DNA of 64,000 nt, from assembly GCA_028279595.1 (NCBI GenBank), contig JANQNK010000004.1, positions 174,993 through 238,992 on the forward strand, in the 5' to 3' direction. The DNA is from Thermoplasmatota archaeon. Lineage in GTDB: Archaea; Thermoplasmatota; JAKEGO01. Position numbers and translations under genes: made by a program. This document shows, one piece after another, positions 13,921-41,223 of this stretch. Numbering within the stretch: the first letter of the stretch is position 1; the number at the start of each line of letters is the position of its first letter. Below the pieces are notes generated by a model, which saw only the letters and a list, made by a program, of their open reading frames with translations, did not search any database and was not told the origin of the DNA.

Positions 13921-14349
13921 TCACTTCTTTGCTTCGGCGTCGTCGATCTCCTGCTTGAGCCACGACTCGACGTCCCCGCCGTGCACCAGTCCGTCGATCT
14001 CGTCCTCGTCGGAGGGTTCGAGCTTCATGATCCAGCCTTCACCGTATGGATCCGTGTTGATGAGCGTCGGGTCGTCCTCCAGGTCCTCGTTCACCTCGAG
14101 GACCTCACCTGACAATGGTGCGACGAACTTGCCCACCCACTTCGCGGACTGGATCTTCCCGCAGGTCTCTCCGGCCTCGACGTCGTCGCCCTCGAAGGGA
14201 AGGTCTATGTACGTGGTGTCCCCGGCGGTCTTCTGGTAGAAGTCGTTCATGCCAATGGTCACGTTGCCGTCGTCCTCCTTCCTGACCCACGCGTGCTCTC
14301 CGTGGTAGTACAGCTCATCGGGCATGTCGTATCCGTGGTAAACCGCCAT
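13921..14349 (-). CDS. GcvH-family lipoyl carrier protein, LbpA-like
   Basis: H-protein pattern (YY..EHAWV, GMNDF, N..L..DP.LIN.DPYGEGWI); lipoyl-Lys context IQSAKWVG resembles LbpA (S-x-K-W-V-G) more than glycine-cleavage GcvH (ESVKAAS). Confidence 0.88.
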   Translation of the reverse strand: MAVYHGYDMPDELYYHGEHAWVRKEDDGNVTIGMNDFYQKTAGDTTYIDLPFEGDDVEAGETCGKIQSAKWVGKFVAPLSGEVLEVNEDLEDDPTLINTDPYGEGWIMKLEPSDEDEIDGLVHGGDVESWLKQEIDDAEAKK

Positions 14350-14409
14350 TTGAACACCTCATACTATTTCTACGGACTTGAATTGATAAACGTTGTTTTA
14401 AGGCTTTTC

Positions 14410-14847
14410 CTAGGTTGTGCCGTCGTCCACAACGACGGTCGGTTCGATGATAACGTCAGACCTGACGGATTTGAAGACAAGACAGTAATCCCGTATGTCG
14501 ACGAGGCACTTCTCGACCTTCTGGCGGTCTGATTCCTCGGCGATCGTGATGACCGGGCGCACAACAACTTGCGTGAACCTTAGCGAACCCTCGGACATCG
14601 TGGCCAGTCCTTCGGCCTCGCTCTCGTATGAGACAAGTCGGATGCGCCGTTTCTCAGCGAGCCACAGGAAGGTCGACATGGTGCAGTGCTCGACCGATGC
14701 GACGAATAGGTCCTCCGGGTTCCAGTAACCTTCGTGGCCGCCGAACTCGGGTCCGCAGGCGACCTCAAGGTTTGGCTTTCCCTCGCTGCCGAGGACCCCT
14801 TTCCGCTCGCCGGTCCACCTCAACCGGGTCCGGTAGGTGTACTCCAT
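14410..14847 (-). CDS. OsmC/Ohr family protein
   Basis: PEFGG..WNPEDLFVASVEHC and second Cys in YCLVFKS; ATG 14847. Confidence 0.88.
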   Translation of the reverse strand: MEYTYRTRLRWTGERKGVLGSEGKPNLEVACGPEFGGHEGYWNPEDLFVASVEHCTMSTFLWLAEKRRIRLVSYESEAEGLATMSEGSLRFTQVVVRPVITIAEESDRQKVEKCLVDIRDYCLVFKSVRSDVIIEPTVVVDDGTT

Positions 14848-14858
14848 CCGCTCTCCCT

Positions 14859-16103
14859 TCACACTATCTCCTCCAGGACGGGCACGGTCCATGTCCCGTT
14901 CGGCATGATGATGACGCTGGGTTCCTTCCCGCGGGAACGCATCGTCGCCATGGCCTCATCGACAGCGGCCTGAATATCGGTAAAGGGCCTCAGGTGCGCC
15001 TTGGTGATGAGCTCATCGTCGACGCCCATGACGGTCCATATCTCGGCCCATTGAAGCGTTTGCATGATCCTCAGCGCCTTGTGGTCGCCCAGATGATATC
15101 CCCCGGAGATGCTGGCCTCGACGTCGTCCAGGCTCTCGATCCCGTGGAGGAAACGTAGGAACGCGTCGTTGCCGACACCGTTCCTGCAGGCAGAGACCCA
15201 GATGATGATGCCGCCCTCGTTCAGGACCAGTTTACCGTTCTCCAGCGCGTGCTGCGACTGGTACATCTCGAGGTCCTTGGGCGGGGGGACGCAGGTGACG
15301 ACTATGTCAGCCTTCCTCGTGACAGGGACGCACTGTAGCGCCATGGCATCCCTGGCAGCAGCTTCGAAGGCTCCGACGATATCGCCGCCGTGTGCAGGAA
15401 GAACGCGCTTCTCGCTGTCGAGGACGAGCTGCATGGTGAATATCCTCTCCGTCCGGAGGAACGACACTGCCTCGGCCATGTCCTCGTGGATAGGGTTCCT
15501 GACCAGCGCGGCTGGTTTCGAGCCGTCGGTCACGGCCAGAGAATGGTTCGCCTCGATCGTCTTGAACCCGGCGATGCCTGGCAGGAAAGACTTCCGCCCT
15601 CCGGAGAACCCGGCGAAGTAATGGGGCTCGACGCTATTGATCGTTATTATCCTCTCAGCGTCGACCGCTAACTTGTTGAAAGTTACCGGTGTCCCACGGG
15701 TGGTTGTCCCGACCGAAACCAGCTTGCTTTCGTCGCGCGCGTCGTGCACCTCGATCATGTCGCGAAAGCGATCCAGGTGACGTCCGAATATCGTCCGGAG
15801 CTGCTCCTCCGTCGGAGAACGATGTGTTCCGGTGGCCACCAGGAATGTCAACTCGGGTCCGCCGTCAAGGAAAGGGACCACGGAATCCAGCACCTCGGCC
15901 GTTGGGGTAGCCCTTGTAGCATCGTTGACTATGATGAGGACGTTCTGTGCACCTTCCACGAACTCCTCCATCGAAGGTCCGTCGTCGGGCGGTTCCGTCA
16001 GAGGAAGCGAGGACGCATCGTTGGGATGGATGACCTCGCACTCTGCAACTACGCTGATCGTGATCGTCTCTCCGCCGTAATCGATGTCGACGGTCCTCAT
16101 CAC
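14859..16103 (-). CDS. larA: LarA-family nickel-pincer 2-hydroxyacid racemase (copy 1)
   Basis: VNDATR, ATGTHR, HDA, EPHYFAGFSGGRKS..PG..TIEANH (cofactor Lys and Ni His), HKA. Confidence 0.9.
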   Translation of the reverse strand: MMRTVDIDYGGETITISVVAECEVIHPNDASSLPLTEPPDDGPSMEEFVEGAQNVLIIVNDATRATPTAEVLDSVVPFLDGGPELTFLVATGTHRSPTEEQLRTIFGRHLDRFRDMIEVHDARDESKLVSVGTTTRGTPVTFNKLAVDAERIITINSVEPHYFAGFSGGRKSFLPGIAGFKTIEANHSLAVTDGSKPAALVRNPIHEDMAEAVSFLRTERIFTMQLVLDSEKRVLPAHGGDIVGAFEAAARDAMALQCVPVTRKADIVVTCVPPPKDLEMYQSQHALENGKLVLNEGGIIIWVSACRNGVGNDAFLRFLHGIESLDDVEASISGGYHLGDHKALRIMQTLQWAEIWTVMGVDDELITKAHLRPFTDIQAAVDEAMATMRSRGKEPSVIIMPNGTWTVPVLEEIV

Positions 16104-16142: not shown

Positions 16143-17072
16143 TCAGAACTCCGGGACCATCTCCTTGACTTCCTGGTACGTGAAGACAGGGCCGTGCTTG
16201 CACACGTAGATGTCGCCGATGTTGCAGCGGCCGCACTTGCCTATGCCGCACTTCATCCTGTTCTCCAGGGTCGTGTAGATCTGGTCCGAGGACCAGCCGA
16301 GCTTCTCGAGGGCCTGGGTGATGAACTTGATGGCGATCGGAGGTCCACACGTGACGACGATGGAGTTCTCCGGTGACGGCTTGACCACCTCGACCAGCTG
16401 CGGTACGAAACAGGTGAACCTGTTCTGTCCGGCAGGTATCTCGGTGTCGCCTGGCGACTTCATGTTTATCGCCGGCCAGTCCTCGTGGGACGCCGCCTCG
16501 ATCGGGCCGTCGGGTCCGAACTTCCAGTCGATGCAGAGCCAGAGGTCCAGGTCGTCGCGGGCCTCGATCTCCTTGAACTCCTCCTTGTAGGCCAGGTCCG
16601 CCGGTGTCCTGGCGCCGTAGATGAGCGTGACATCGCCGTAATCCTTCCTGTGATCGGGATGGAGCACCCACTGGTAGACGCTCCTGACCGGGGAGATGCC
16701 GATACCGGCACCGATGAAGACCATGTTCTTGCCCTTCCAGTCGTCCACGGGGAAGTCGTTGCCATAGGGACCTCTCAGTCCGACCTTGTCGCCGACATCG
16801 AGCTCGTGGAGCTTTCCAGTGACGTTGCCAACCCGCATCGCCGAGACCTCGACTATTCCGTCGGTGTTCGGGAAAGAGGATATCGCGAAGACGCTCTCGC
16901 CGGTGCCGAAGTGGCTGACGATGCAGAACTGGCCCGGCTTGTGGAGGAAGTCCTCGCGCTCGGACTCGTCGTCGATCTGCATCTTGAACGTCCGTATCGG
17001 ACGGCCGCCGCCGGCCTCAAGCTGGATGTCCAGCACAGTTGCCGTGACCGGCTTGTAGATGTTGTCGGTCAT
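16143..17072 (-). CDS. flxA: FlxA-type FAD/NAD(P)-binding [2Fe-2S] oxidoreductase
   Basis: PGQF, RGPYGN, GAGIG, CGPP, MKCGIGKCGRC; last gene of an mvhD-flxC-flxB-flxA series. Confidence 0.85.
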   Translation of the reverse strand: MTDNIYKPVTATVLDIQLEAGGGRPIRTFKMQIDDESEREDFLHKPGQFCIVSHFGTGESVFAISSFPNTDGIVEVSAMRVGNVTGKLHELDVGDKVGLRGPYGNDFPVDDWKGKNMVFIGAGIGISPVRSVYQWVLHPDHRKDYGDVTLIYGARTPADLAYKEEFKEIEARDDLDLWLCIDWKFGPDGPIEAASHEDWPAINMKSPGDTEIPAGQNRFTCFVPQLVEVVKPSPENSIVVTCGPPIAIKFITQALEKLGWSSDQIYTTLENRMKCGIGKCGRCNIGDIYVCKHGPVFTYQEVKEMVPEF

Positions 17073-17073
17073 T

Positions 17074-18138
17074 TCATGCAGCCTCCTCGCCCTTCGCGTC
17101 GGCATCCTTCTCCATGCACGCTCGCGCGACAGCGCCCTCCGTCACATCGATGATGTCGATGTTCACGGGACAGGCGGATATGCACCTGCCGCAGCCGACG
17201 CAGCCTATCACGCCGAGGTTGTTGTCGATGTAGAGGAACTTGTGGTACATCCTGTTCCGCTGCCTCATGCGCTTCGCCGGCCTCGGGTTGTGCCCCGATG
17301 CGTGGGATGAGTAGTACTCGAACTGGCAGGAGTCCCAGGTCCGCTCGCGCCGTCCCTCGCCCTGCTTCACGACGTCGTTGATGTCGAAGCAGTGGCAGGT
17401 CGGACAGAGCAGGGTGCACATGCCGCATCCGATGCAGCTGGCCGAGATATCCTCCCAGTACTTGCTTTCGAAGAGACAGCGGAGGGATTCCGCCACCTCG
17501 GCCCTGTCGAAAGTGCGTGTGATCGCCTTCACGGCGTTCTCCTTGACCTCCTCGGCAGACGACTCATCGTCCGAGACGGCCTCTACGAAGAGGTTCCCGC
17601 CAAGCTCGATCAGGGCCTCGCCCTTCTCGGTGACGCTCTCGACGAAGTACCTGTCACCCAGGTCGGTCCAGAGGCTGTCGACCCCTTCCGTTCCGGAGGG
17701 GCTCCCCTCGATGGAGGTGCAGAAGCAGTTCTCATCGGGTTTCTGGCCCGAGCACGTTAGCGCGATCGTCGTCGCTCTCTCGCGCCTGTCAACGAAGTAA
17801 GGGTCGATGTAGTCCCAGGTGAAGAGCTTGTCCAGGAGCGTGAACGCCTTGGCGTCGCATGGACGCACGCCGAACACCACGAGCGGCTTGCTCGCCCGCT
17901 GCGGCTCCTCCGCGCCTACGAAACGCGCTCCGTCGCGCTTGAACTCGAACATCGTCTCGGTCTGGGGGAAGAAGACGGACTTCGGAGGGACCTGCGAGTT
18001 GCCGAACTCGAGATCGGGAGCGGAATCGAGCTTCTTGTAGGTCCAGACCCCGTCGACCTCCACCGGTCCGTAGACCTCATGCTCCGAGAGCGCCTCGAAG
18101 AGGGCGTCCATCTTGTCCTTTCCAATTGTGTGTGACAT
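17074..18138 (-). CDS. flxB: FlxB/AsrA-type 4Fe-4S dicluster protein
   Basis: GVRPCD, CFCTS, CIGCGMCTLLCPTCHCF, R.WDSC, CVGCGRCISACP. Confidence 0.85.
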   Translation of the reverse strand: MSHTIGKDKMDALFEALSEHEVYGPVEVDGVWTYKKLDSAPDLEFGNSQVPPKSVFFPQTETMFEFKRDGARFVGAEEPQRASKPLVVFGVRPCDAKAFTLLDKLFTWDYIDPYFVDRRERATTIALTCSGQKPDENCFCTSIEGSPSGTEGVDSLWTDLGDRYFVESVTEKGEALIELGGNLFVEAVSDDESSAEEVKENAVKAITRTFDRAEVAESLRCLFESKYWEDISASCIGCGMCTLLCPTCHCFDINDVVKQGEGRRERTWDSCQFEYYSSHASGHNPRPAKRMRQRNRMYHKFLYIDNNLGVIGCVGCGRCISACPVNIDIIDVTEGAVARACMEKDADAKGEEAA

Positions 18139-18150: not shown

Positions 18151-19071
18151 CTACCAGATGAAATCCTCCGGGTCGGCCGTGTCGCACGTCCCGAACATGC
18201 TGTCGTCCTCGGGATCGACCCCCGCCTCTACGTCGTAGCGTTCCTTCGCCTTCCACTCCAGGTACCTGTTGATCTTCCTGATGGGGATGTCCACGGGGCA
18301 GACGCGCTCGCACTCGCCGCAGTCGACGCAGCGGCCGGCGAGATGCATCGCCCTCACGAGGTGGTAGAACGTGTTCTCGGGCAATTGCACCGACTTCTCG
18401 TTCCACCTGTAGGGCTTCTCGCGGTCGAACACGCACTCCTCGCAGTAGCACAGCGGGCACGCCTCGCGGCATCCGTAGCACCGGACGCACCTCTCGAGCT
18501 GGCGCTCCCAGTACTCCCACCTCTCCTGCGGGGTCATTGCCTCCAACTCGGCCACGTCCGAGTAATCGTCTGTTATCGTTTCAGGGACCGCCTCGCCGCA
18601 GACGACGTCTGCGATCAGTGGATTGTGATGCGTGCATACGAGGCATTTACCGGCGATGTTCTCATCGGTCACCGCGGGCGGCTGCTTTTCGGACCCGTCC
18701 ACCTTCTTGGTGTCGCAGACGCCCTCGCATGTGACCCCGATGATCTTGACGCGCTCCCGTGCGACGATGTTCTCCTTCATGAGCTCGACGATGGTCTTCG
18801 AGTCGCACGGCTTGACGACGATGCCGATCGGCGTCGTGTCGAGCTCCTCGCCACGTCCGGGTCTGGTCTGCATCTCCTCCACGAGGAAGAGCGTCAGGTT
18901 GTTGACGCACATGGAGTTCCATACAAGCTTGTCAGCGTCTTCCGGTCTCCGGACGAAGGCGACCTTCGTGCCTGCGCGGCGGCCCTGTTCGAACCCGACG
19001 ACGTACTTGACCTCTCCGGACTCGAGCCATCCGCGTGCGGTGTCCTGGATCTGGCCCTGGCGGTCCGTCAT
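18151..19071 (-). CDS. flxC: FlxC-type (FrhB/FdhB-related) Fe-S subunit
   Basis: [44 protein letters not shown]; ATG overlaps the upstream stop. Confidence 0.8.
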
Positions 19072-19508
19072 TGGCCACCACCTCCGGCCATCTTGGTCTG
19101 GGGGCCAAGCTCCCTGACCTGTTCCGTGAACTTGGTGACCACTTCCGCGAACTTGTGGCCCTCGGATGCCGAGACCCACGAGAGCTGGAACCGACCTGGA
19201 TCGATGCCCATGTGGTCCATCAGGTCGTGCAGCAATGTCAGCTTTCGCCTCGCATGATAGTTGCCCTTGATGTAGTGGCAGTCGCCCGGATGACATCCGG
19301 AGACGAGCACACCGTCCGCTCCCTCCTGGAACGCTTTCAGAATGAACTGGGGATTGACCCGGCCAGAGCACATCACCTTGATGATGCGGATGTTGGACGG
19401 ATACTGCAGCCTGGACGTCCCTGCGAGGTCGGCGCCCGTGTAGCTGCACCAGTTGCACAGGAATCCCAGGATCTTCGGCTCGAAATCGTTCTTCGCGTCG
19501 TCAGCCAT
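19068..19508 (-). CDS. mvhD: MvhD/FlxD [2Fe-2S] subunit
   Basis: [39 protein letters not shown]. Confidence 0.93.
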
Positions 19509-22688: not shown

Positions 22689-23211
22689 TCTTACCAGCCT
22701 CTAATCCTCTCTCGAATGCGTTCACGTTGAGGTCTATGAACCGCTTCGGCACGCTGTCTACTACGGCCTTCTTGACGGACTCCGGGTCGAGGAGGTCGTC
22801 GATCCCGGCCATGGCACCCACCATCGCGATGTTGGTAACGATCTTGTTACCCAGGTCCTCTGCGATCTTCTGGACCCTGACCTTGTAGATCGGCCGACCT
22901 ATGTCGTGGTTCGGCACGAGGTCTGGATCGATGATAATGACTGTGTTCTCATGCAGATCGTCGCGATACGTGTTGAAGGCCTCCTGGGCCATCGCCACGT
23001 ACAGGTCCACGCCGGTCGGGCGCGGGTATCCGATCTTCTCGTCCGAGATCAGGACCTCGGAGCGGGCGGCGCCTCCGCGGGCCTCGGGTCCGTATGACTG
23101 GCTCTGGACAGCATTGAGGTCTCCGAACACGCAGGCTGCCTTTCCCCAGATGAATCCGGCCAGGATCACTCCCTGACCGCCGAAACCGCAGATCCTCACT
23201 TCACGTTTCAT
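22672..23211 (-). CDS. korG: 2-oxoacid:ferredoxin oxidoreductase gamma subunit
   Basis: GFGGQGVILAG, QSYGPEARGG. Confidence 0.9.
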   Translation of the reverse strand: MKREVRICGFGGQGVILAGFIWGKAACVFGDLNAVQSQSYGPEARGGAARSEVLISDEKIGYPRPTGVDLYVAMAQEAFNTYRDDLHENTVIIIDPDLVPNHDIGRPIYKVRVQKIAEDLGNKIVTNIAMVGAMAGIDDLLDPESVKKAVVDSVPKRFIDLNVNAFERGLEAGKNARPE

Positions 23212-23213
23212 GT

Positions 23214-29339: not shown

Positions 29340-29400
29340 GTTTCCGAATATATATTCTTTCTGGCATTTCGAAGGCCAGGAAACGATGAATTTTCATAAA
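29340..29400 (-). promoter_or_regulatory. Internal BRE/TATA promoter with palindromes for the hdrC2B2-tfr-kor-hdrA3-flx sub-operon
   Basis: AT-rich 214-bp gap; minus strand AGAAAG-AATATATA; palindromes GAATATATATTC (29346-29357) and ATGAA-TT-TTCAT (29386-29397). Confidence 0.55.
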
Positions 29401-33261: not shown

Positions 33262-36200
33262 CAGGCCACCCCCCTGTAGGCCTCGATCTGGGCCGTGATC
33301 TCCTCGTTCGTGAAATGCTTCATGGTGATGGCCAGCTTCGGACAGCTTGCTCCGCAGACGCCGCAGCCCTTGCACGATGCGGGGATGACCTGAGCCTTGC
33401 GTCCGCCCTCCTTCAGAACTAGCTCCATGGCCTTGAAGGGACAGTTGGTGACGCACAGACCGCAGCCGATGCACATCTCCTCGGTGATATCGGCAATGGC
33501 GGGATTGACCCTGACCTCGCCCTTGGCGAGCAGTGTCGAAGCCCTTGCGGCCGCAGCGTACGCCTGTGCAATGGACTCTTCCATCGTCTTCGGGGAGTGT
33601 GCCATGCCGGCGAGGAAGACGCCGTCCGTGGCGAAATCGACAGGACGCAGCTTGACATGCGCCTCGAGGAAGAAACCGTCCTCGTTGAGGGGGACCTTGA
33701 GCATCTTCGCCAGGTCGACCCTGTCGGGGCGCGGCTCGATGGCCGGTGCCAGTGCTACTATGTCCGCCTCTATGAAGAGCTCTTCGCCGAGTATCTTCTC
33801 CTTGACCTTGACCGTCAGCGCATCGCCGTCAGTGTCCACGGCGGGCTTGCCGTCCAGGTCGAACCGGACGAACACGACGCCGAGCTCCCTTGCGCGGCCG
33901 TAGTGGCTCTCCTTCAATCCATACGTGCGCATGTCCCTGTAGAGGATGTAGACCTGTGCCGATGGGTCAGTTTCCTTGATCCTGATGGCGTTCTTGATGG
34001 CGTCCGAGCAGCAGACGCGGCTGCAGTACGTGTGGCTCTCGTCCCTTGAACCGACGCACTGGATCATGGCGACGGTCCTCCCGACCGGTTCGCCCTCAGC
34101 GATCCGTCGCTCCAGCTCCGTCTGTGAGATGACGCGCTCGTCCTCGCCGAAGAGGTACTCCGCAGGTGCCGATTCGACCGCGCCTGTCGCGACGATTATC
34201 GCACCATGCTCGACCCTCTCCGGGCCGTCCGGCGTGTCTATGACCGACTCGAAGTTGCCGACGAAGCCGCCGATCTCCGAGACCTTCGCGTTGAGGTGGA
34301 CATCGATGATGTCGCTCTCCCCGATCCGGTCCACGAGCGAGCCCAGGTATTCCTGGACGTTGTCATTGTCAAGTGTGTAATGTATGTTCCTCATGTTCCC
34401 GCCGAGAGCGTCCTCCTGTTCGACGAGTGATACTCCGAAGCCCTGGTCCGCAAGGGCGAGGGCAGCGGTCATTCCCGCAAGTCCGCCGCCGATCACGAGG
34501 CCGTGCTGGATGACGTCCAGTGAGAGTTCCTCGAGGGGTTCGATGTGCGCCGCCCGAGCGACGGACATCCGGACTAGGTCCTGCGCCTTCTCGGTCGCGG
34601 TGGCCTTGTCGTCCATGTGGACCCACGAGCACTGGTCCCGGATGTTGGCCATCTCGAAGAGGTGGGCGTTCAGACCTGCCTCCCGAAGCGTCTCCTGGAA
34701 TAGGGGTTCGTGCGTCCTTGGAGTGCACGAGGCAACGAGCACGCGGTTCAGCCCATGCTCCTTGATCCGGTCGATGAGCGTGTGCTGTGCGTCCTGGCTG
34801 CAGGAGTAGATGTTCTCCTCGGCGTGGACGACGTTCGGCAGTCCCCTGGCGTACTCCACGACCGCGGGCACGTCGACGTAGGCACCGATGTTGATGCCGC
34901 AATGACATACGTAGACGCCGATCCGCGGCTCCTCGCCGGAGACGTCGCGCTCGGGGACGAACTCGCGCTCCTCGACGAGAGTCCCGCGTCCGGACGATAT
35001 CATCGCGCCAGCCTTCGCGGCCGCGCCGGAGGCCTCCATCACGGTCTCCGGGATGTCCTTCGGACCGGAGAATGCGCCGCAGACGAAGACGCCTGGTACG
35101 TCGGTCTCCATGGGCCTCGTCTCCTCGGTCTCGCAGAAACCGAAGTCGTCCAGGGATATGCCGGCCGTCTCGGCGAGGTCCTTGACGCCCTCGCCCGGCT
35201 CCAGGCCGATGGAAAGGACGACCATGTCGAAGGTCTCCTCCCTCAATGCCCCTTCCTCGCTCTCGTACCTTATCCTGAGGTCCTTCCCGGGGGTCTCCTG
35301 GACCTCCGAGATCCTGGACCTTATGAATCGGATGCCATGCTGGTCCTCGGCGCGGTTGAGATAGGACTCGAAACCCTTGCCGTGGGTGCGCATGTCCATG
35401 TAGAAGATGGTCGGCTCGACGGAACCGGAGTGCTCCTTGGCGATTATGGCCTCCTTGATGGAGTAGGTGCAGCAGACGGAAGAGCAGTACTCGTTCCCGC
35501 ATGACCTGTCCCTGGACCCGACGCAGTTGATCCAGGCGATCCTTTTCGGCTCCTTCCCGTCGGACGGCCTGAGCACGTGACCTTCGTACGGACCGGAGGC
35601 AGAAAGTATCCGCTCGAACTCGAGGGACGTCACGACGTTGTCGAAGCGGCCGTAGCCGTATTCGCCCTTCGCCTCTGCGTGGAAACCCTCGAACCCGGGC
35701 GCCATGACGATCGACCCTACCTCGACGGTGCGTTCGATATCCTGCATGTCGAAATCGATTGCGTTAGCGGGGCAGGCCTCGACGCACTTCATGGCGCACT
35801 TGCCGGTCTTGACCTGGAGGCAGTTGACGGGATCGACGACGTACCGGAGCGGTACGGCCTGGGGATATGGGATGTAGATCGCGCTCCTCTCCTTCAGCTC
35901 CTCGTCGAACTCGTTCCTGAGACGCCCCTTGAGGACGCATGCCTCGGCGCAGAGGTTGCATCCGACGCAGGCCTCGGTTACGCGGCGTGCTCTTTCGGTG
36001 ATCTTGACGGTGAAGTCGCCCGCCTTTCCGTCGATCGCAGTGACCGACGAGTTCGTCATCAATTCTATGTTCGGGTGCCTGCCGACGTCCACGAGCTTCG
36101 GCGACAGGATGCAGAGGGAACAGTCATTGGTTGGAAATGTCTTGTCGAGCTGTGCCATCGCCCCGCCTATCGCGGGCTTGTCCTCCACCATGTAGACCTT

Positions 36201-36287
36201 GAAGCCGGCGTCGGCCAGGTCGAGTGCGGACTGGATGCCACCAATGCCGCCCCCGACTACCAGCACAGCGCCGACCGGGTCGCTCAT
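33261..36287 (-). CDS. hdrA: Double-length heterodisulfide reductase subunit A (paralog 1)
   Basis: Same two-FAD-domain motif set as paralog 2; translationally coupled to hdrB and mvhD. Confidence 0.93.
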   Translation of the reverse strand: MSDPVGAVLVVGGGIGGIQSALDLADAGFKVYMVEDKPAIGGAMAQLDKTFPTNDCSLCILSPKLVDVGRHPNIELMTNSSVTAIDGKAGDFTVKITERARRVTEACVGCNLCAEACVLKGRLRNEFDEELKERSAIYIPYPQAVPLRYVVDPVNCLQVKTGKCAMKCVEACPANAIDFDMQDIERTVEVGSIVMAPGFEGFHAEAKGEYGYGRFDNVVTSLEFERILSASGPYEGHVLRPSDGKEPKRIAWINCVGSRDRSCGNEYCSSVCCTYSIKEAIIAKEHSGSVEPTIFYMDMRTHGKGFESYLNRAEDQHGIRFIRSRISEVQETPGKDLRIRYESEEGALREETFDMVVLSIGLEPGEGVKDLAETAGISLDDFGFCETEETRPMETDVPGVFVCGAFSGPKDIPETVMEASGAAAKAGAMISSGRGTLVEEREFVPERDVSGEEPRIGVYVCHCGINIGAYVDVPAVVEYARGLPNVVHAEENIYSCSQDAQHTLIDRIKEHGLNRVLVASCTPRTHEPLFQETLREAGLNAHLFEMANIRDQCSWVHMDDKATATEKAQDLVRMSVARAAHIEPLEELSLDVIQHGLVIGGGLAGMTAALALADQGFGVSLVEQEDALGGNMRNIHYTLDNDNVQEYLGSLVDRIGESDIIDVHLNAKVSEIGGFVGNFESVIDTPDGPERVEHGAIIVATGAVESAPAEYLFGEDERVISQTELERRIAEGEPVGRTVAMIQCVGSRDESHTYCSRVCCSDAIKNAIRIKETDPSAQVYILYRDMRTYGLKESHYGRARELGVVFVRFDLDGKPAVDTDGDALTVKVKEKILGEELFIEADIVALAPAIEPRPDRVDLAKMLKVPLNEDGFFLEAHVKLRPVDFATDGVFLAGMAHSPKTMEESIAQAYAAAARASTLLAKGEVRVNPAIADITEEMCIGCGLCVTNCPFKAMELVLKEGGRKAQVIPASCKGCGVCGASCPKLAITMKHFTNEEITAQIEAYRGVA

Positions 36288-37171
36288 GCCGCCTCCTCTC
36301 CCTCCTCGAGTTTCGCCAGGAGGTCCTTGGCCTTGACCTTGTTGAGCCTGAATCCCAGCTGTTTCTTGTCCATTCCGTAAGCGAGGCCCAGCAGCTGGGG
36401 GTAGTAGAGGACCGGCAGGCCGTACTCCGTCTCGTACTTCTGCTCGATCTTCTTCTGATTGTCCTCGTACATGACGGTACAGAAGGGACAGACCGTGATG
36501 AGCCCGTCAACCGGGTTCGCCGTGATGTGATCGAGCTTCTTCTTCGCCATCTGGAGGGCGATGTCCTCCTCCACGCCGAGGATGGCCCCTCCGCAGCATT
36601 CGAGCTTGTCCTGGTAGTCGACGGACTTCGCTCCGGCGGCCTCGATGAGCTCGTCGATCGTCCGCGGGTCCTCGGCGTCGTCGAAGCAGTGCACTTCAGC
36701 AGGCCTGAGGTAGTGGCACCCGTAATGGACCGAGAACGAGAAGTCGCTCATGTCCCGTGTGATGGGGTCCTTGATCTTCTCAAGACCTATATCCTCGTAG
36801 AGCATCCTCGAGAAGTGCTTGATCTTCGTCCCTGGCTTGAACTCGCAACCCACGTCCTTCAGGTCCTCGTTGACCTTGGCGCGCAGTTCGGAGTCCTCCG
36901 AGAGGATGTGGTTAGCCTCGGCAAGTACGCCGGTGCAGGCGTTGCAGAGGGTCACGATATCGACGCCCTCCTTCTGGGCCTGACATATGTTCCTGGCAGC
37001 GAGGGCCAGAGTGCTCCTGGCACTCGTCGATTTCACGGGATATCCGCAGCACGAGAAACCGTCCATGTCGACGAGCTCGATGCCGAGCTTCTCGGCGACT
37101 GCGCGGGCGGAGAGTTCGTAGTTCTGACCCCTTACGGGGATCGTGCAGCCTAGGAAGAGTGCGTACTTCAT
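36284..37171 (-). CDS. hdrB: Heterodisulfide reductase subunit B, copy 1
   Basis: FLGCTIP, FSCCG, LCNAC, HYGCHYLRP, ECCGG, CPFC. Confidence 0.93.
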   Translation of the reverse strand: MKYALFLGCTIPVRGQNYELSARAVAEKLGIELVDMDGFSCCGYPVKSTSARSTLALAARNICQAQKEGVDIVTLCNACTGVLAEANHILSEDSELRAKVNEDLKDVGCEFKPGTKIKHFSRMLYEDIGLEKIKDPITRDMSDFSFSVHYGCHYLRPAEVHCFDDAEDPRTIDELIEAAGAKSVDYQDKLECCGGAILGVEEDIALQMAKKKLDHITANPVDGLITVCPFCTVMYEDNQKKIEQKYETEYGLPVLYYPQLLGLAYGMDKKQLGFRLNKVKAKDLLAKLEEGEEAA

Positions 37172-37656
37172 TCACACACCTCCGCGATGGCCGGGTCCTT
37201 GACGACCTTCCTGACCTCGTCGATGGTCTTCTGGACGGGGGGCAGGCCCATCTTCTCGCGCTTCTTGTTGTCGAAGTCCTCGACCTCGTAGAGACGGCCG
37301 AACTCGAGCACGAGCCGCGCCTGCTCCTTGAAGGAGGGATGCATGTATCCCTCCCGTACGGCGATGTTCTTCAATGCCGTCATGATGTCGGTGAGGTGTA
37401 CGTCCTGGGGACACCTGTCGTAACAGGTATAGCATGTGGAACAGAGCCATATGAACTCGCTCGACAGTACCTCTTCCCTCATTCCAAGAAGGACCATCCT
37501 GATGATCTTGCGGGGATTGTACTTGTCGTCGATCTCGCGGACGGGGCATCCTGCCGTGCAGGTTCCGCACGCGAAGCAGCGGGATATCTCCCATCCACCG
37601 AGTTCCTTCGAGACCTCGTCCTTGAAGTTCGGATCAAGCTCGCTGGTCCTTATCAT
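37168..37656 (-). CDS. hdrC: Heterodisulfide reductase subunit C, copy 1
   Basis: CFACGTCTAGCP, IWLCSTCYTCYDRCPQ. Confidence 0.93.
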   Translation of the reverse strand: MIRTSELDPNFKDEVSKELGGWEISRCFACGTCTAGCPVREIDDKYNPRKIIRMVLLGMREEVLSSEFIWLCSTCYTCYDRCPQDVHLTDIMTALKNIAVREGYMHPSFKEQARLVLEFGRLYEVEDFDNKKREKMGLPPVQKTIDEVRKVVKDPAIAEVCE

Positions 37657-37657
37657 C

Positions 37658-38707
37658 TCACTTTGCCTCCATGACCGCTTTTGTGATGTCCCTGGGCTCG
37701 ACGCCTGGCGTCTGGACCTCGGACTCCTCGTAGAACTCCTCGATCGCGTTCACGACCTCGGACTCGTCCCTCTGGGTGTCGGCCAGGCTCGCCTCGAGAC
37801 CGGCCAGTTCCTTCTTCGGAAGGAGCGTGAAGTCGCCGGAGATGCCGATGTCGGCGATGCGGGCCTCGACCACCTCCTGCTGCGTCCTTATCAGGCCGCC
37901 CTGGGCCTTGTACATGCCGTAGAGTATCTCCACGCCTTCCTTGATCTTGACCCCGCTGGGGACCTTCGGGGTCTTCCTGTACTTGAACTCGGGTGAATCG
38001 AACCAGACCGCCAGTTCCTCCATCTTCGCGACCACGTCGTCGCTCAGGGTCAGCGGGGTCAGCTTTCCGAGGAGGTCCTCGTATCGGCTATGGAGCACGC
38101 CGGTGAGCTCCTCCCTCGGGGGGAGCCTTCCGAGTTCCTTCTTCATTGTGGTGACGTTCTCCTCCATCGTCTTGAAGACCTTGTCCCTGAACTTCTCGTC
38201 GGGGACCTTGATCGCATGGGCCATCGCGTTGAAGTCGAAGTCCATGATGAGCGAACCGACGAAGACCATCGAATCGTCTATGTCCGCGCCGCCGAGACCC
38301 GCGATCTTGCGGCCCTCGGTCGTGATTATGTCGTTGACCTCGCGGAACTTGGTCTGGATGCCGTACTCCTCGTAGGTCTCGATCGGCGGGATCGACAGCT
38401 GCTGGTAGATCTCCTTGACGCTCTTGGGGAACGCCGGATTGTCCTGGTTCCAGATTATATGGTAGAATATCTGGTCCCTGTCGAGGTAGACCGTGCCCCC
38501 GCCGACCTCCCTGCGGATTATCGGGAGACCCGCTTTTTCGCAGTAGGCGGTGTCAACCTCCTTCTCTAGGTCCTGGAAGTATCCCACGCTGATGAACGGG
38601 GTCTCGGGGGACACCGTCACCATCGCCTCCACGCCCATCCGGGCGAGGGTGTGGAATATCAACATCGACTGTTTCCATGGGCGCACACCGAGATCGAGCA
38701 GGTACAC
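37658..38707 (-). CDS. lplA: Lipoate:protein ligase, catalytic plus C-terminal accessory domain (Lpl(AB))
   Basis: SVGYFQ, RREVGGGTVYLD, NDI...RKIAG, C-terminal KAQGGLIR..ISGDF; GTG start. Confidence 0.92.
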   Translation of the reverse strand: MYLLDLGVRPWKQSMLIFHTLARMGVEAMVTVSPETPFISVGYFQDLEKEVDTAYCEKAGLPIIRREVGGGTVYLDRDQIFYHIIWNQDNPAFPKSVKEIYQQLSIPPIETYEEYGIQTKFREVNDIITTEGRKIAGLGGADIDDSMVFVGSLIMDFDFNAMAHAIKVPDEKFRDKVFKTMEENVTTMKKELGRLPPREELTGVLHSRYEDLLGKLTPLTLSDDVVAKMEELAVWFDSPEFKYRKTPKVPSGVKIKEGVEILYGMYKAQGGLIRTQQEVVEARIADIGISGDFTLLPKKELAGLEASLADTQRDESEVVNAIEEFYEESEVQTPGVEPRDITKAVMEAK

Positions 38708-38716
38708 ATGATCACC

Positions 38717-39775
38717 TCATTTCAGGGCTTTCCAGATGAGGTCCTCAATGTTCCTGACGGTTATAGTATCTTCACCTAACTCCGCCACGGTCTTCGCGGC
38801 CTTCTTGAGCACCGTCTCGCAGGTTGAACAAGTAGTGACGAGGACCTCGGCTCCGGTGGCGACGGCCTGTCGGATCCGGTAGAGGGAGATGTCGTCCGAG
38901 AGCTCCTGATCGGACATGAGGATGCCCCCGCCGCCTCCGCAGCAGGCAGAGCCGTCCTTGTTGCTCTCCATCTCGATGAGCTCGCAGCCGAGCCTCTTGA
39001 TTATCTCACGGGGCTCGTCGATTATCTTGAGACCGCGCGAGAAATCGCATGGGTCGTGGTATGTGACCTTCATTCCGAGGTCGCCCTGCGGAAGCACCTC
39101 CAGGATCGCCTGGAGCAGATGCCTGGCTTCGATGTCGTGGCCTTCCCTCAGGAAGACGGTGCAGGTCGGACACATCGTGATCGCCTCTCCGTGCGGGAAC
39201 GCCGCCTTGAAGCGCTCCTTGTGCTCGTCGAAGTCGTCAACGAACCCGAGGATCTCCATGGGGAATCCGCAGCAGACCTCGTCGCTAATCGTTGCGTCGA
39301 TGCCGAGCTTCTCCAGGATCTTGATGAACTTCTTGGTCTTGTTGGGCCGGGACTGGTACTGGCATCCGACGAAGAGGGGTGTGTCGCCCTCCTTGCCCTC
39401 GATGCCTCCCTCGGTGTCGCCGTAGATGTTGCCTGTGTCCTTGACGTTCTGGATGACGCGCTCGTGTGTCTCGCTCGAAAAGCCGGCCTTGACGAGGTCG
39501 GCGCGGGCTGCGGCTATGATGTCCACGACGGTCACGTTCGAGGGGCAGCGCTCCATGCAGTCGCCGCACGTCGTGCACTGGAACAGGCGGTCCGCGACCT
39601 CCTGGGTCGCCTCCAGGTCGCCGGTCATCAGCCCGTACGAGAGCATGACCTTTCCCCGGGCGCCGTCGGTGTCCCATCCGCGCTCGCGGATCACTGGGCA
39701 CTCCTCGAAGCAGTAGGCGCACCTTATGCAGACGTACATCTCGTTCTCGAGCTTCTCCAGGTTCTTCGCTTCCAT
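38717..39775 (-). CDS. GlcF/HdrD-like (Fe-S + CCG) oxidoreductase subunit
   Basis: CIRCAYCFEECP, CTTCGDCMERCP, CCGFP, YHDPC, CCGGGG; ATG 39775. Confidence 0.88.
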   Translation of the reverse strand: MEAKNLEKLENEMYVCIRCAYCFEECPVIRERGWDTDGARGKVMLSYGLMTGDLEATQEVADRLFQCTTCGDCMERCPSNVTVVDIIAAARADLVKAGFSSETHERVIQNVKDTGNIYGDTEGGIEGKEGDTPLFVGCQYQSRPNKTKKFIKILEKLGIDATISDEVCCGFPMEILGFVDDFDEHKERFKAAFPHGEAITMCPTCTVFLREGHDIEARHLLQAILEVLPQGDLGMKVTYHDPCDFSRGLKIIDEPREIIKRLGCELIEMESNKDGSACCGGGGGILMSDQELSDDISLYRIRQAVATGAEVLVTTCSTCETVLKKAAKTVAELGEDTITVRNIEDLIWKALK

Positions 39776-39780
39776 CCTTG

Positions 39781-41223
39781 TCACCCCCTCACCTTGTACC
39801 TGAGGTCCGTCGCGGTCACCCAGTCGTCCGGAGCGTCCTGCAGTTTGTGCGGGTTGAGTATGTTGTTGGGATCTAGGGCCTTCTTGATGGCGCGCATCGT
39901 CTCGAGCTGGTCGGCCTTCTCCTCCTTCCACGCAGGTGCCTTGGAGAGGGCGATGCCGTGCTCGCCGGATGTCGTTCCGCCTACCTCGCGTATGAACTTG
40001 TAGACCTCGTCGACCGCCTTCGCCGATGCGTCCCACTGGCTCTGCTGGGATGGGTCGATGAGGATCTTCGTGTGTATGAGGCCGGAGCCGGCGTGGCCGT
40101 AGGCGCTCATTATGATGCCGTTGTTCTCGGCGATCTCGTGGATCTTCTGTATCGTTGCCGCGATCTGGGATATCGGAACGGCCATGTCGTCGGCCAGGGA
40201 GGTCGAGACGAGTCCTTCCTTGTAACGGGAGAGCGATGGGAAGAGCTTCTTCCTTCCGGCGTAGATACGGGCCATCTCCTTTGGGTCGTCACTGACCTCG
40301 ATCCCGGAGCCGTTGTGCTCCTTGAATATCTCCTGGACGCGCTCCATATCGCGGTCCACCTCGTCCTTGGCCATGCCGTTGCACTCGAACATCACGATGG
40401 CCTCGACGTCAGGGAGTCCCATGTCCAGTGCTGTATTGACGGCCTTGATGGCAACGTGGTCCATCAGCTCGAGCATGGACGGCTTCACGCCGCTGGCGGC
40501 GATGGCCGATATCGCGTTCCCGGCGTCCTCGAGCCTGTCGAAGTTTACCACGCCGATCATCCTGAACTTGGGAAGAGGTGCCAGCCTGAGTGTAGCCTCC
40601 GTGACGATCCCGAGTGTGCCCTCGGAACCGACGATCAGCCTGTGGAGCTGGTAGCCGGCGGATTCCACGATCGTGTTGGAGCCGAGGTCCAGTGCCTCAC
40701 CGTTCGCCATGACGACCTTCATGCCCATTATCGAGTCGCGGGTCGCGCCGTACTTCACCGCGCGGTTCCCAGAGGCGTTGGTCCCGATCATCCCGCCGAT
40801 CGTGCAGATGTTGCCGGATGACGGTGTCGGGGGGAAGAAGACGCCGAACGGCTTCAGGGCCTTGTTGAGGTCGTCGTTGACGACCCCGGCCTCGACGCGG
40901 ACGAGCACGTCCTCGGGTTTTATGTCCATGATCCTGTCCATCCTCTTCATGTCGAGGACGATGCCGCCGTCGATAGGGACTGTGTGCCCGGACATGCCGG
41001 AGCCGGCGCCCCTAGGGACGATCGGTATCTTCTTCTCGTTCGCGTAGCGAACGATGTCCTGGACCTCCTCGGTCGTACCGGGCCGGACCACCACGTCGGG
41101 CTTGGCCTGGTGAACCGATGCGTCCGAGGAATACACGTACAGGTCGAACGCCCTGTCGGAGACGTTCTCATCACCGACTATCGACCTCAGCCTCTCGATG
41201 TCGACGTCCATATTGACCACCAT
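39781..41223 (-). CDS. GlcD/Dld-family FAD-linked D-2-hydroxyacid dehydrogenase
   Basis: PRGAGSGMSG, TIGGMIGTNASG..VKYG, GSEGTLG, GHAG..IH, GEHGI. Confidence 0.9.
   Translation of the reverse strand: MVVNMDVDIERLRSIVGDENVSDRAFDLYVYSSDASVHQAKPDVVVRPGTTEEVQDIVRYANEKKIPIVPRGAGSGMSGHTVPIDGGIVLDMKRMDRIMDIKPEDVLVRVEAGVVNDDLNKALKPFGVFFPPTPSSGNICTIGGMIGTNASGNRAVKYGATRDSIMGMKVVMANGEALDLGSNTIVESAGYQLHRLIVGSEGTLGIVTEATLRLAPLPKFRMIGVVNFDRLEDAGNAISAIAASGVKPSMLELMDHVAIKAVNTALDMGLPDVEAIVMFECNGMAKDEVDRDMERVQEIFKEHNGSGIEVSDDPKEMARIYAGRKKLFPSLSRYKEGLVSTSLADDMAVPISQIAATIQKIHEIAENNGIIMSAYGHAGSGLIHTKILIDPSQQSQWDASAKAVDEVYKFIREVGGTTSGEHGIALSKAPAWKEEKADQLETMRAIKKALDPNNILNPHKLQDAPDDWVTATDLRYKVRG

What the first reader, a model, noticed from the sequence alone, without database searches (positions are those of the whole stretch)
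13921..41223. Candidate lipoyl-carrier-dependent Hdr-Flx-fumarate reductase bifurcation system
Seen: 24 co-oriented genes, many with overlapping stop/start codons: glcD, glcF/hdrD, lpl, hdrC, hdrB, hdrA, mvhD+, hdrA | hdrC, hdrB, tfrB-like, tfrA, korDABG, hdrA, mvhD, flxCBA | larA, osmC | lbpA/gcvH. The ligase stop is 1 nt from the hdrC start. No GcvP/T, E2/E3, DsrC, hydrogenase or methanogenesis gene is in the window. Known: HdrB/CCG domains reduce disulfides; Flx-Hdr bifurcates NADH to ferredoxin and a disulfide; Tfr oxidises thiols with fumarate; LbpA and Lpl accompany the sulfur-oxidising sHdr system; OsmC/Ohr use lipoyl groups. Inference: the lipoylated carrier is the shared dithiol/disulfide. 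HdrABC-Flx and GlcD/F would reduce it, and HdrB2C2-Tfr (fumarate) and OsmC (peroxide) would re-oxidise it, giving reduced ferredoxin. Flx-Hdr-Tfr clusters are known; the lipoyl shuttle is the part I have not seen described.
Basis: partly seen in the sequence, partly recalled or inferred. Interest (0 to 1): 0.92.

Follow-up and report, generated by a model that had tools for sequence, protein, structure and literature searches.

The report
Lipoyl carrier protein wired to Hdr enzymes
An uncultured Thermoplasmata archaeon has a 24-gene redox operon holding a special lipoic-acid carrier protein and its own loading enzyme, and the same carrier travels with heterodisulfide-reductase genes in at least nine phyla, so protein-bound lipoate is a testable candidate for the unknown disulfide these enzymes use outside methanogens.

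Summary
There are 24 co-oriented, mostly overlapping genes at 41223-13921 on the minus strand, with small corrections to the korD frame and several start codons.

The carrier is not an LbpA and not the housekeeping H protein. In a tree it falls in a separate clade (GcvH*, 99% support). This genome's second GcvH falls in the canonical clade, and gcvP and gcvT lie on other contigs.

Of 60 GcvH* genes from at least 9 phyla, 35 lie within 10 kb of Hdr, Flx or CCG genes, and none lies next to gcvPT.

Among 61 Thermoplasmatota genomes, the same 10 carry GcvH*, a fused lipoate ligase and an HdrB1-type HdrB.

No DsrC, CoM-synthesis gene, McrA, E2 or LipA was found.

The best reading is that lipoyl-GcvH* is the dithiol/disulfide partner of the CCG enzymes (HdrB1C1, HdrB2C2-Tfr, GlcD-HdrD). 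This rests on comparative genomics only. The direction of electron flow is untested.

The Hdr-Flx-Tfr-Kor half matches a published tubeworm-symbiont cluster. A GcvH-Hdr link was speculated once, for Culexarchaeia.

This scan has noted the same ligase/carrier-in-Hdr theme before on other DNA: 35 notes in at least 31 genomes.

The parts
39781..41223 (-). glcD-like FAD-linked D-2-hydroxyacid dehydrogenase
   Evidence: FAD_binding_4 plus FAD-oxidase_C. TIGR00387 glcD scores 398 bits, below its cut-off.
38717..39775 (-). HdrD/GlcF-like subunit: two [4Fe-4S] sites plus two CCG domains
   Evidence: CCG x2 and Fer4_8. The true start, at MEAKNLEK, was found.
37658..38707 (-). Dedicated fused lipoate-protein ligase Lpl(AB)
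   Evidence: LplA-B_cat plus Lip_prot_lig_C. The RRxxGGGxVYxD motif and the RKIAG lysine motif align with solved ligases. It keeps its place between hdrD and hdrC in G001, G022, Stahlbacteria and L056-58.
37168..37656 (-). HdrC1
   Evidence: TIGR03290 scores 137.5 bits.
36284..37171 (-). HdrB1, the disulfide-reducing CCG subunit
   Evidence: TIGR03288 scores 307.7 bits. It scores 270-277 bits against solved methanogen HdrB over its full length. All 10 cysteines of the two CCG motifs are invariant (A1).
33261..36287 (-). HdrA1, a double-length HdrA
   Evidence: 698 bits to 5ODC_A in 3 stretches, against 160 bits to sHdrA 6TJR. The HdrA2 model scores 1012 bits.
32497..33261 (-). MvhD1 with a C-terminal extension of about 125 aa
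   Evidence: FlpD domain. The start was set.
29492..32500 (-). HdrA2, a double-length HdrA
28846..29397 (-). HdrC2
   Evidence: TIGR03290 scores 81.8 bits.
27946..28839 (-). HdrB2, the CCG subunit next to Tfr
   Evidence: CCG x2. All 10 cysteines are kept (A1).
27185..27949 (-). TfrB N-part-like Fe-S subunit: 2Fe-2S plus 4Fe-4S
   Evidence: Fer2_4 and Fer4_9.
25535..27184 (-). TfrA-like fumarate reductase flavoprotein
   Evidence: The TfrA model scores 310.8 bits, below its cut-off. The HPTG, RGxGG, HYxxGG and NRLxGNSL motifs are kept. The histidine that binds FAD covalently is replaced by Asn.
25263..25520 (-). KorD, a ferredoxin-type delta subunit
   Evidence: Two CxxCxxCxxxCP motifs.
24092..25273 (-). 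KorA
   Evidence: PRK08659 scores 541 bits, over its cut-off.
23214..24092 (-). KorB
   Evidence: TPP_enzyme_C. PRK09628 scores 271 bits.
22672..23226 (-). KorG
   Evidence: POR domain.
19509..22688 (-). HdrA3, a double-length HdrA
   Evidence: The HdrA2 model scores 1031.9 bits.
19068..19508 (-). MvhD2 (FlxD)
   Evidence: FlpD scores 197.6 bits.
18151..19071 (-). FlxC-like Fe-S protein
   Evidence: Fer4_8 and a weak FrhB_FdhB_C match. The start was set.
17074..18138 (-). FlxB (AsrA/HydB-like)
   Evidence: Fer4_22. ShyB and HydB models match.
16143..17072 (-). FlxA, the NAD(P)H/FAD/2Fe-2S subunit
   Evidence: NAD_binding_1 and DHODB_Fe-S_bind.
14859..16103 (-). LarA-family 2-hydroxyacid racemase homologue
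   Evidence: Lar_N and LarA_C. The best model is malate racemase LarAH6, at 326 bits, below its cut-off.
14410..14847 (-). OsmC-family peroxiredoxin
   Evidence: OsmC scores 58.6 bits.
13921..14349 (-). GcvH* lipoyl carrier, from the clade linked to Hdr genes
   Evidence: GCV_H scores 138 bits. The signature is GETCGKIQSAKWVGKF (A2). It sits in a clade separate from canonical GcvH. Contexts are given.

Best explanation
The operon encodes a soluble electron-transfer network that links NAD(P)H, ferredoxin, fumarate and 2-oxo/2-hydroxy acids. Its three CCG-domain catalytic modules share one protein-bound dithiol/disulfide. That shared carrier is the lipoyl arm of a specialised H-protein paralogue (GcvH*), loaded by a dedicated fused lipoate ligase encoded between hdrD and hdrC1. 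The three modules are HdrB1C1 with HdrA1/MvhD1/HdrA2, HdrB2C2 with TfrA/TfrB', and HdrD with GlcD.

The most likely scheme (inferred, not shown) runs as follows. FlxABC-MvhD2-HdrA3 takes electrons from NAD(P)H. A HdrA flavin splits them between ferredoxin, which serves the Kor 2-oxoacid:ferredoxin oxidoreductase, and lipoyl-GcvH*, reduced at HdrB1. HdrB2C2-Tfr re-oxidises dihydrolipoyl-GcvH* with fumarate. OsmC can re-oxidise it with peroxide. GlcD-HdrD, fed by the LarA racemase, exchanges electrons between a D-2-hydroxyacid/2-oxoacid pair and the same carrier.

Shown here:
- the gene content;
- intact catalytic motifs;
- a separate GcvH* clade;
- conserved synteny and phyletic co-occurrence;
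- no alternative thiol carrier found.

Inferred:
- binding of GcvH* to CCG subunits;
- the directions of electron flow;
- bifurcation.
For: Domain content and intact motifs:
- All 24 genes were assigned to families.
- Both CCG motifs, 10 cysteines, are invariant in HdrB1 and HdrB2.
- The ligase keeps its catalytic lysine motif.
- HdrA and HdrB are of the methanogen type.

Synteny:
- A sister genus (G001) has the whole cluster.
- G022, from another family, has larA-glcD-hdrD-lpl-hdrC-hdrB.
- Stahlbacteria have GlcD::HdrD-Lpl-HdrC-HdrB-HdrA::MvhD-GcvH*-...-Kor.
- Another lineage has HdrD-Lpl-HdrC-HdrB-OsmC-HdrL-MvhD-GcvH*.
- Latescibacteria have HdrC-HdrB-GcvH*.
- A Desulfatiglandales MAG has LarA-GlcD-HdrD-GcvH*-HdrD-cytochrome b-Lpl.

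Survey of 80 GcvH loci:
- Among carriers at least 60% identical to this one, 29 of 35 have Hdr, Flx, CCG, OsmC, LarA, GlcD, Tfr or Kor within 10 kb.
- gcvP and gcvT neighbours occur only beside homologues 46% identical or less (11 loci).

Tree:
- A split with 99% SH-aLRT support separates a canonical clade from the GcvH* clade.
- The canonical clade has 21 rows, including this genome's C18 copy.
- The GcvH* clade has 60 rows. 35 are in an Hdr/CCG context and none is next to gcvPT.

Phyletic profile over 61 Thermoplasmatota genomes:
- The same 10 genomes hold GcvH* (E <= 1e-30), the fused Lpl (E <= 6e-40) and an HdrB1-type HdrB (E <= 2e-86).
- 13 other genomes have only a more distant HdrB and no GcvH*.

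Own genome:
- A housekeeping bipartite LplA/LplB lies next to a radical SAM gene on C5, so the cluster ligase is an extra one.
- A canonical GcvH, GcvP and GcvT lie elsewhere.
- DsrC, ComA and McrA were not found.
Against: - No biochemical or structural evidence exists for contact between GcvH* and HdrB.
- GcvH* still scores above the curated cut-off of the canonical gcvH model (131.6 against 115.85 bits), so a role in glycine cleavage is not excluded.
- One GcvH* subclade (10 Desulfobacterales loci) has only a ligase next door and unrelated flanks.
- Most of the bacterial orthologues of the ligase, about 55% identical, are not next to hdr.
- Free lipoamide sits near -290 mV (textbook value), close to NADH. 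It is therefore a poor high-potential acceptor for NADH-driven bifurcation unless fumarate reduction pulls it. It also lies below the lactate/pyruvate couple.
- The published model for the Hdr-Flx-Tfr-Kor cluster also allows direct electron transfer with no thiol carrier (PMC11636981).
- The genome is only 86% complete, so the absences are provisional.
Confidence: 0.6

Rival explanations
1. This rival proposes an antioxidant side-module. GcvH*, OsmC and Lpl form a lipoyl-dependent peroxidase system. It merely draws reducing power from, or is co-regulated with, the oxygen-sensitive Hdr/Flx/Kor enzymes. The Hdr-Flx-Tfr-Kor assembly passes electrons internally, from NADH to fumarate and ferredoxin, without any free thiol carrier.
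For: - OsmC lies next to GcvH* here and in 14 of the 35 closest loci. In L056-58 it sits inside the hdr operon.
- Lipoyl-dependent Ohr/OsmC peroxidases are established, as cited in the Dahl-laboratory texts read.
- The published Endoriftia model allows direct transfer to Tfr and OGOR.
- Several bacterial ligase orthologues sit beside Fur-family, thioredoxin and Lpd-like genes.
Against: - Many GcvH* loci have Hdr/CCG genes but no OsmC: Latescibacteria, Stahlbacteria, L112, L117 and L015.
- The ligase is placed between hdrD and hdrC, not beside osmC.
- Even in this reading, something with a CCG domain must reduce lipoyl-GcvH*. The rival therefore overlaps with the main explanation.
Confidence: 0.2
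2. This rival proposes a sulfur-carrier role like that of sHdr-LbpA. The lipoyl arm would carry sulfane sulfur (persulfide) to the Hdr active site for sulfur oxidation or reduction, and would not cycle as a plain dithiol/disulfide.
For: - The only proven pairing of a lipoyl protein with Hdr is sHdr-LbpA, which has its own ligase (PMC6067878).
- TusA homologues exist in the genome.
- An earlier scan note (e1-5470437) describes a variant flanked by dsrE and tusA in another lineage. I did not check it.
Against: - None of the 24 genes is a sulfurtransferase, and the TusA homologues lie on other contigs.
- The carrier lacks the conserved N- and C-terminal cysteine pair and the basic surface of LbpA. 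Its pI is 4.05.
- HdrA is of the long methanogen type (698 bits) and not sHdrA-like (160 bits).
- The partners in the cluster are carbon-metabolism enzymes: Tfr, Kor, GlcD, LarA and a fumarase nearby.
Confidence: 0.1
3. This rival proposes housekeeping and coincidence. GcvH and Lpl would serve glycine cleavage and general lipoate salvage, and would lie near hdr genes by chance.
For: - GcvH* passes the TIGR00527 cut-off.
- gcvP, gcvT and an Lpd-like gene exist in the genome.
Against: - The genome has a second, canonical GcvH (motif ESVKA, in the canonical clade) and a separate LplA/LplB pair.
- None of the 53 loci with a carrier at least 50% identical has gcvP or gcvT nearby.
- Synteny recurs in at least 9 phyla.
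- Three-way co-occurrence is seen in 10 of 61 genomes.
Confidence: 0.05

Closest known systems
sHdr-LbpA-sLpl(AB) sulfur-oxidising heterodisulfide-reductase-like system (Cao et al. 2018, PMC6067878; Tanabe et al. 2023, PMC10332631)
   Same: A GcvH-family lipoyl carrier and a dedicated lipoate ligase are encoded with HdrB/C/A-type genes. The genome keeps a separate canonical lipoylation route.
   Different: - The carrier is acidic and lacks the LbpA cysteine pair.
- HdrA is the long methanogen type.
- The cluster has no sulfurtransferases and no LipS1/S2.
- The partners are Flx, Tfr, Kor, GlcD and LarA, in an anaerobe.
rTCA-linked Hdr-Flx-Tfr-KorABCD gene cluster of Ca. Endoriftia (PMC11636981) and FlxABCD-HdrABC of Desulfovibrio (Ramos et al. 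2015, from my own knowledge)
   Same: The half hdrC2-hdrB2-tfrB'-tfrA-korDABG-hdrA3-mvhD2-flxCBA has the same parts, with Kor lying between HdrBC and HdrA. The published idea is also the same: NADH is bifurcated to fumarate and to ferredoxin/OGOR.
   Different: - The published models invoke direct transfer or a DsrC-like protein. Here no DsrC was found.
- A lipoyl carrier, a ligase, a second HdrABC set and GlcD-HdrD are added in the same operon.
Methanogen MvhAGD-HdrABC plus thiol:fumarate reductase TfrAB (CoM-SH/CoB-SH); solved HdrABC 5ODC
   Same: HdrB1 aligns over its full length with solved HdrB, and both CCG clusters are intact. The logic is also shared: one enzyme reduces a disulfide and Tfr re-oxidises the thiols with fumarate.
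   Different: - McrA and ComA were not found.
- TfrB is split into an Fe-S protein plus HdrB2C2.
- The donor module is Flx (NAD(P)H), and no hydrogenase lies in the cluster.
Ehe-HdrBC-SdhA-CdhA-HdrA2B2C2-GcvH cluster of Culexarchaeia (Kohtz et al. 2022, PMC9723716)
   Same: A GcvH gene lies inside an Hdr cluster of a non-methanogen that lacks CoM/CoB synthesis. The authors speculate that GcvH carries the disulfide for HdrB.
   Different: - That cluster is built around a membrane hydrogenase and mentions no ligase.
- It offers no clade analysis and no cross-phylum survey.
- It was a single sentence of speculation.
Lipoyl-dependent Ohr/OsmC peroxidases (Cussiol et al. 2010, as cited in the texts read)
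   Same: An OsmC-family protein is encoded next to a lipoyl carrier.
   Different: In the known systems the lipoyl protein is an E2 or H protein reduced by Lpd. Here the neighbours are Hdr and Flx.

Membership tests
sHdr-LbpA system | [quoted passage not shown] | tested here: not met
   The carrier has one cysteine, in the middle of the protein (E. coli GcvH has a cysteine at the same position). Its pI is 4.05. The criteria come from bioRxiv 10.64898/2026.10.01.755906.
sHdr-LbpA system | A short sHdrA flavoprotein of the non-bifurcating type | tested here: not met
   HdrA1 scores 698 bits to methanogen HdrA 5ODC_A, against 160 bits to 6TJR.
sHdr-LbpA system | Sulfurtransferases (TusA, DsrE, rhodanese) in the cluster | tested here: not met
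   None is found among the 24 genes. The TusA homologues lie on contigs C18, C10 and C13.
sHdr-LbpA system | A dedicated lipoate ligase encoded with the hdr genes | tested here: met
   Lpl at 38707-37658 lies between hdrD and hdrC1. A second, bipartite LplA/LplB lies elsewhere.
sHdr-LbpA system | The carrier groups with LbpA in a phylogeny | not testable with these tools
   I could not obtain a reference LbpA sequence. The PDB holds none, and the Thioalkalivibrio genome I reached has only one GCV_H match.
Canonical glycine-cleavage H protein | Scores above the curated equivalog cut-off of TIGR00527 | tested here: met
   131.6 bits against a cut-off of 115.85.
Canonical glycine-cleavage H protein | Groups with gcvPT-linked H proteins and lies near gcvP or gcvT | tested here: not met
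   It falls in a separate clade at 99% SH-aLRT. None of the 60 clade members is next to gcvPT, and the genome's C18 copy is the canonical one.
HdrB (CCG-domain disulfide reductase) | Two CX31-39CCX35-36CXXC motifs that bind the two non-cubane [4Fe-4S] clusters | tested here: met
   C9, C41, C42, C76 and C79, and C152, C192, C193, C228 and C231, are invariant in HdrB1, its relatives and HdrB2. HdrB1 matches 5ODC_B over its full length.
FlxABCD-HdrABC | FlxA (NAD(P)H/FAD/2Fe-2S), FlxB, FlxC, FlxD (MvhD-like), HdrA, HdrB and HdrC encoded together | tested here: met
   Shown by domain composition. HdrB/C are separated from HdrA3 by tfr and kor, as in the Endoriftia cluster.
Thiol:fumarate reductase TfrAB | A flavoprotein with the fumarate-reductase catalytic residues | tested here: met
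   The HPTG, RGxGG, HYxxGG and NRLxGNSL motifs align with Sdh/Frd structures. The histidine that binds FAD covalently is replaced by Asn.
Thiol:fumarate reductase TfrAB | A single TfrB that fuses the Fe-S domain and the CCG domain, and use of CoM-SH/CoB-SH | tested here: not met
   The Fe-S part (27949-27185) and the CCG part (HdrB2C2) are separate genes. ComA and McrA were not found.
Lipoate-protein ligase LplA | A catalytic domain with the conserved lysine motif, plus the C-terminal accessory domain | tested here: met
   EGRKIAG aligns with DGKKFCG of 1VQZ and EGKKVSG of 6JOM. Lip_prot_lig_C is present. Activity was not tested.

The most novel reading that the evidence does not exclude
The lipoate bound to GcvH* is the general physiological disulfide of methanogen-type HdrABC, HdrD-type dehydrogenases and split thiol:fumarate reductases in non-methanogenic anaerobes of many phyla. 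These include Thermoplasmatota, Stahlbacteria, WOR-3, Zixibacteria, Latescibacteria, Armatimonadota, Actinomycetota, Bacillota and Desulfobacterota. The carrier would be the protein-bound counterpart of CoM-S-S-CoB and DsrC, loaded by its own ligase.
Probability: 0.5. Interest if true: 0.9.

Novelty: new variant of a known kind. Interest (0 to 1): 0.8.

Why it matters
HdrABC, HdrD and Flx-Hdr genes are widespread in non-methanogenic anaerobes. Their disulfide substrate is unknown except where DsrC (sulfate reducers) or LbpA (sulfur oxidisers) has been implicated. That gap blocks any quantitative account of electron bifurcation, and so of energy conservation, in large parts of the uncultured anaerobic biosphere.

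A small, well-defined lipoyl protein with its own ligase is a concrete candidate that can be expressed. It can be lipoylated in vitro and offered to Hdr, to Tfr and to GlcD-HdrD. If it works, it also explains why these operons carry OsmC, and how oxidation of 2-hydroxyacids, reduction of fumarate and 2-oxoacid:ferredoxin chemistry are tied together in one operon.

Tried and rejected
- **Complex prediction.** HdrB1 (alignment A1) with GcvH* (alignment A2) gave no verdict (score 0.00, controls not run). This is neither support nor evidence against binding.
- **LbpA in the tree.** I could not place LbpA. The Thioalkalivibrio genome reached through L133 has only one GCV_H match, and the PDB holds no LbpA. 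I therefore used the published sequence criteria instead.
- **A conserved cysteine.** I first took the cysteine seven residues before the lipoyl-lysine for a GcvH*-specific feature. E. coli GcvH has it too, so I dropped the idea.
- **The 86-aa ORF at 25533-25273.** It matches no family and is Arg/Gly-rich junk. The real korD is in the neighbouring frame.
- **The third 'LplA-like' hit, on C13.** It is a biotin ligase (BPL_C domain).
- **The ligase as a universal Hdr marker.** I rejected this. Most Desulfobacterota orthologues, about 55% identical, sit in contexts without hdr.
- **Literature searches.** Searches found no paper describing this module beyond the Culexarchaeia remark.

Full report
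**What is there.** Region 41223-13921 holds 24 intact genes, all on the minus strand. In order of transcription they are:

- a GlcD-like FAD dehydrogenase;
- its HdrD/GlcF-like partner with two CCG domains;
- a fused lipoate-protein ligase;
- HdrC1, HdrB1, a double-length HdrA1, an MvhD with an extension, and a double-length HdrA2;
- HdrC2, HdrB2, a 2Fe-2S/4Fe-4S protein like the N-terminal part of TfrB, and a TfrA-like flavoprotein;
- KorD, KorA, KorB and KorG;
- HdrA3, MvhD2, FlxC, FlxB and FlxA;
- a LarA-family racemase homologue, an OsmC-family protein, and a GcvH-family protein.

The ligase stop and the hdrC1 start are 1 nt apart. Most junctions are 1-4-nt overlaps. Only three gaps exceed 30 nt.

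I corrected a few gene models. korD is 25520-25263, with two ferredoxin-type cysteine motifs. hdrD starts at 39775. mvhD1, hdrA2 and flxC start at 33261, 32500 and 19071.

The closest named relative is a Thermoplasmata MAG, JAKEGO01. Its contig is the G001 contig that carries the same cluster.

**The catalytic parts look functional.**
- HdrB1 and HdrB2 keep all ten cysteines of the two CCG motifs. HdrB1 aligns end to end with solved methanogen HdrB.
- HdrA1 scores 698 bits against HdrA of the solved Mvh-Hdr complex. It scores only 160 bits against the sulfur-oxidiser sHdrA.
- The ligase keeps the RRxxGGGxVYxD motif and the lysine motif of solved lipoate ligases.
- The TfrA-like protein keeps the fumarate-reductase catalytic motifs. 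It has Asn where membrane Sdh/Frd enzymes have the histidine that binds FAD covalently. By general knowledge of this family, that fits a reductase better than a succinate dehydrogenase. This last point is an inference.

**Is the carrier just the glycine-cleavage H protein?** The genome (86% complete) has gcvP on contig C4, gcvT on C7, an Lpd-like gene on C16 and a second GcvH on C18.

The C18 copy has the canonical ESVKA lipoylation motif. The cluster copy reads QSAKW inside a strongly conserved signature, GETCGKIQSAKWVGKF. It still passes the curated gcvH model.

It lacks the two terminal cysteines and the basic surface that define LbpA; its pI is 4.05.

In a tree of 81 H-family proteins, a branch with 99% SH-aLRT support separates two groups:
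- a canonical clade of 21 rows, which holds the gcvPT-linked genes, Bacillus and this genome's C18 copy;
- a clade of 60 rows that contains the window's protein. I call this clade GcvH*.

**Synteny.**
- The sister genus has the whole cluster.
- A genome of another family has larA-glcD-hdrD-lpl-hdrC-hdrB up to a contig end.
- Homologues about 70% identical occur in other phyla, and their neighbourhoods repeat the theme.
- Stahlbacteria have a GlcD::HdrD fusion, then Lpl, HdrC, HdrB, HdrA::MvhD and GcvH*, then GlcD, ferredoxin and Kor.
- Another lineage has malic enzyme, HdrD, Lpl, HdrC, HdrB, OsmC, a 1477-aa HdrA/GltD-like protein, MvhD and GcvH*.
- Latescibacteria have HdrC-HdrB-GcvH*.
- A Desulfatiglandales MAG has LarA, GlcD, HdrD, GcvH*, a second HdrD, a NarI-like cytochrome b and Lpl.

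I also surveyed 80 loci from species-representative genomes.

| Carrier identity to the window's | Loci | Loci with Hdr, Flx, CCG, OsmC, LarA, GlcD, Tfr or Kor within 10 kb |
|---|---|---|
| 60% or more | 35 | 29 |
| 50-60% | 18 | 6 |

gcvP and gcvT neighbours appear only beside homologues 46% identical or less (11 loci).

Relatives are not independent. Even so, the association is seen in Thermoplasmatota, WOR-3, Zixibacteria, Stahlbacteria, Latescibacteria, Clostridia/Bacillota, Armatimonadota, Actinomycetota, Thermodesulfobacteriota and a Pseudomonadota MAG.

**Phyletic profile.** Among the 61 Thermoplasmatota genomes sampled, the same ten hold three things:
- GcvH* (E <= 1e-30);
- a full-length fused ligase (E <= 6e-40);
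- an HdrB1-type HdrB (E <= 2e-86).

Thirteen further genomes have only a more distant HdrB (E >= 8.5e-72) and no GcvH*. In six of the ten genomes, GcvH* and the HdrB gene lie on one contig within about 11 kb. I read the E-value break off after seeing the data, so the counts are descriptive.

**No rival thiol carrier was found.** DsrC, ComA, McrA, E2 lipoyl proteins and LipA were not found. A bipartite LplA/LplB pair next to a radical SAM gene on C5 looks like the housekeeping lipoylation route. The cluster ligase is therefore an additional, dedicated one.

**Weak points.**
- One GcvH* subclade (Desulfobacterales) has only a ligase beside it and unrelated flanks.
- Most bacterial orthologues of the ligase are not next to hdr.
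- There is no binding evidence.
- Thermodynamics constrain the scheme. Lipoamide at about -290 mV (textbook value) is too close to NADH to serve as the 'pulling' acceptor, unless fumarate reduction keeps it oxidised. It also lies below the lactate/pyruvate couple, so the direction of GlcD-HdrD is open.

**Relation to what is known.**
- The hdrC2-to-flxA half matches the rTCA-linked Hdr-Flx-Tfr-KorABCD cluster of Ca. Endoriftia. The published model for that cluster is NADH bifurcation to fumarate and ferredoxin/OGOR, either directly or through a DsrC-like protein (PMC11636981). An earlier scan note led me to that paper.
- The lipoyl-carrier-plus-ligase logic is that of sHdr-LbpA (PMC6067878). 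The defining features of that system were tested and not met.
- One paper speculated that a GcvH in an Hdr cluster of Culexarchaeia might carry the disulfide (PMC9723716).
- Five literature searches found nothing further.
- Within this scan the theme has been noted 35 times in at least 31 genomes. My analysis reached the same reading independently, before I looked those notes up.

**Verdict.** The carrier-Hdr link is strong by comparative genomics, while the mechanism and its direction are inferred. It is a new variant of a known kind and is directly testable.

Noticed in passing
window 7033-13818 (-): A 2261-aa protein with eight Beta_helix/NosD stretches lies directly downstream of gcvH. It is probably a surface protein unrelated to the operon.
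   Followed up: no
window 44110-45399 (+): A 429-aa protein consists of four tandem AMP-binding_C domains and has no adenylation core. This is an odd architecture.
   Followed up: no
window 45551-46786 (+) and 47341-48797 (+): A second LarA homologue and a class I fumarase (Fumerase_C) lie on the opposite strand, upstream of the operon and transcribed away from it. They fit a malate/fumarate/succinate theme. LarC (PF01969), which is needed to make the nickel-pincer cofactor of LarA, was not found in the 86%-complete genome.
   Followed up: partly
window 42749-43861 (-): A 370-aa protein with two winged-helix regions (weak MarR and TrmB/Crp matches) lies just upstream of glcD. It is a candidate regulator of the operon.
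   Followed up: no
L015 3612-11053; also L156, L157, L161, L173, L182: A bacterial variant has [LarA-GlcD]-HdrD-GcvH*-HdrD-NarI-like cytochrome b-Lpl. It would link the same carrier to a membrane module of the HdrDE/DsrMK type, and so to the quinone pool.
   Followed up: partly
L010 5927-15989: In Syntrophaceae-type MAGs the orthologous ligase (56% identical) sits among a Fur-family regulator, an Lpd-like disulfide reductase, a MOSC protein, a methyltransferase, DUF364/DUF4213, thioredoxin and a DAO/BFD protein. This looks like a different, possibly redox-stress, context for the same ligase clade.
   Followed up: partly
L052/L053 1-2581; L056-L058 4091-8524: Giant fusions of 1477-1504 aa join HdrA to a GltD/NfnB-like part and accompany HdrC-HdrB-GcvH* in bacteria. 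This suggests a direct NAD(P)H input in place of Flx.
   Followed up: no
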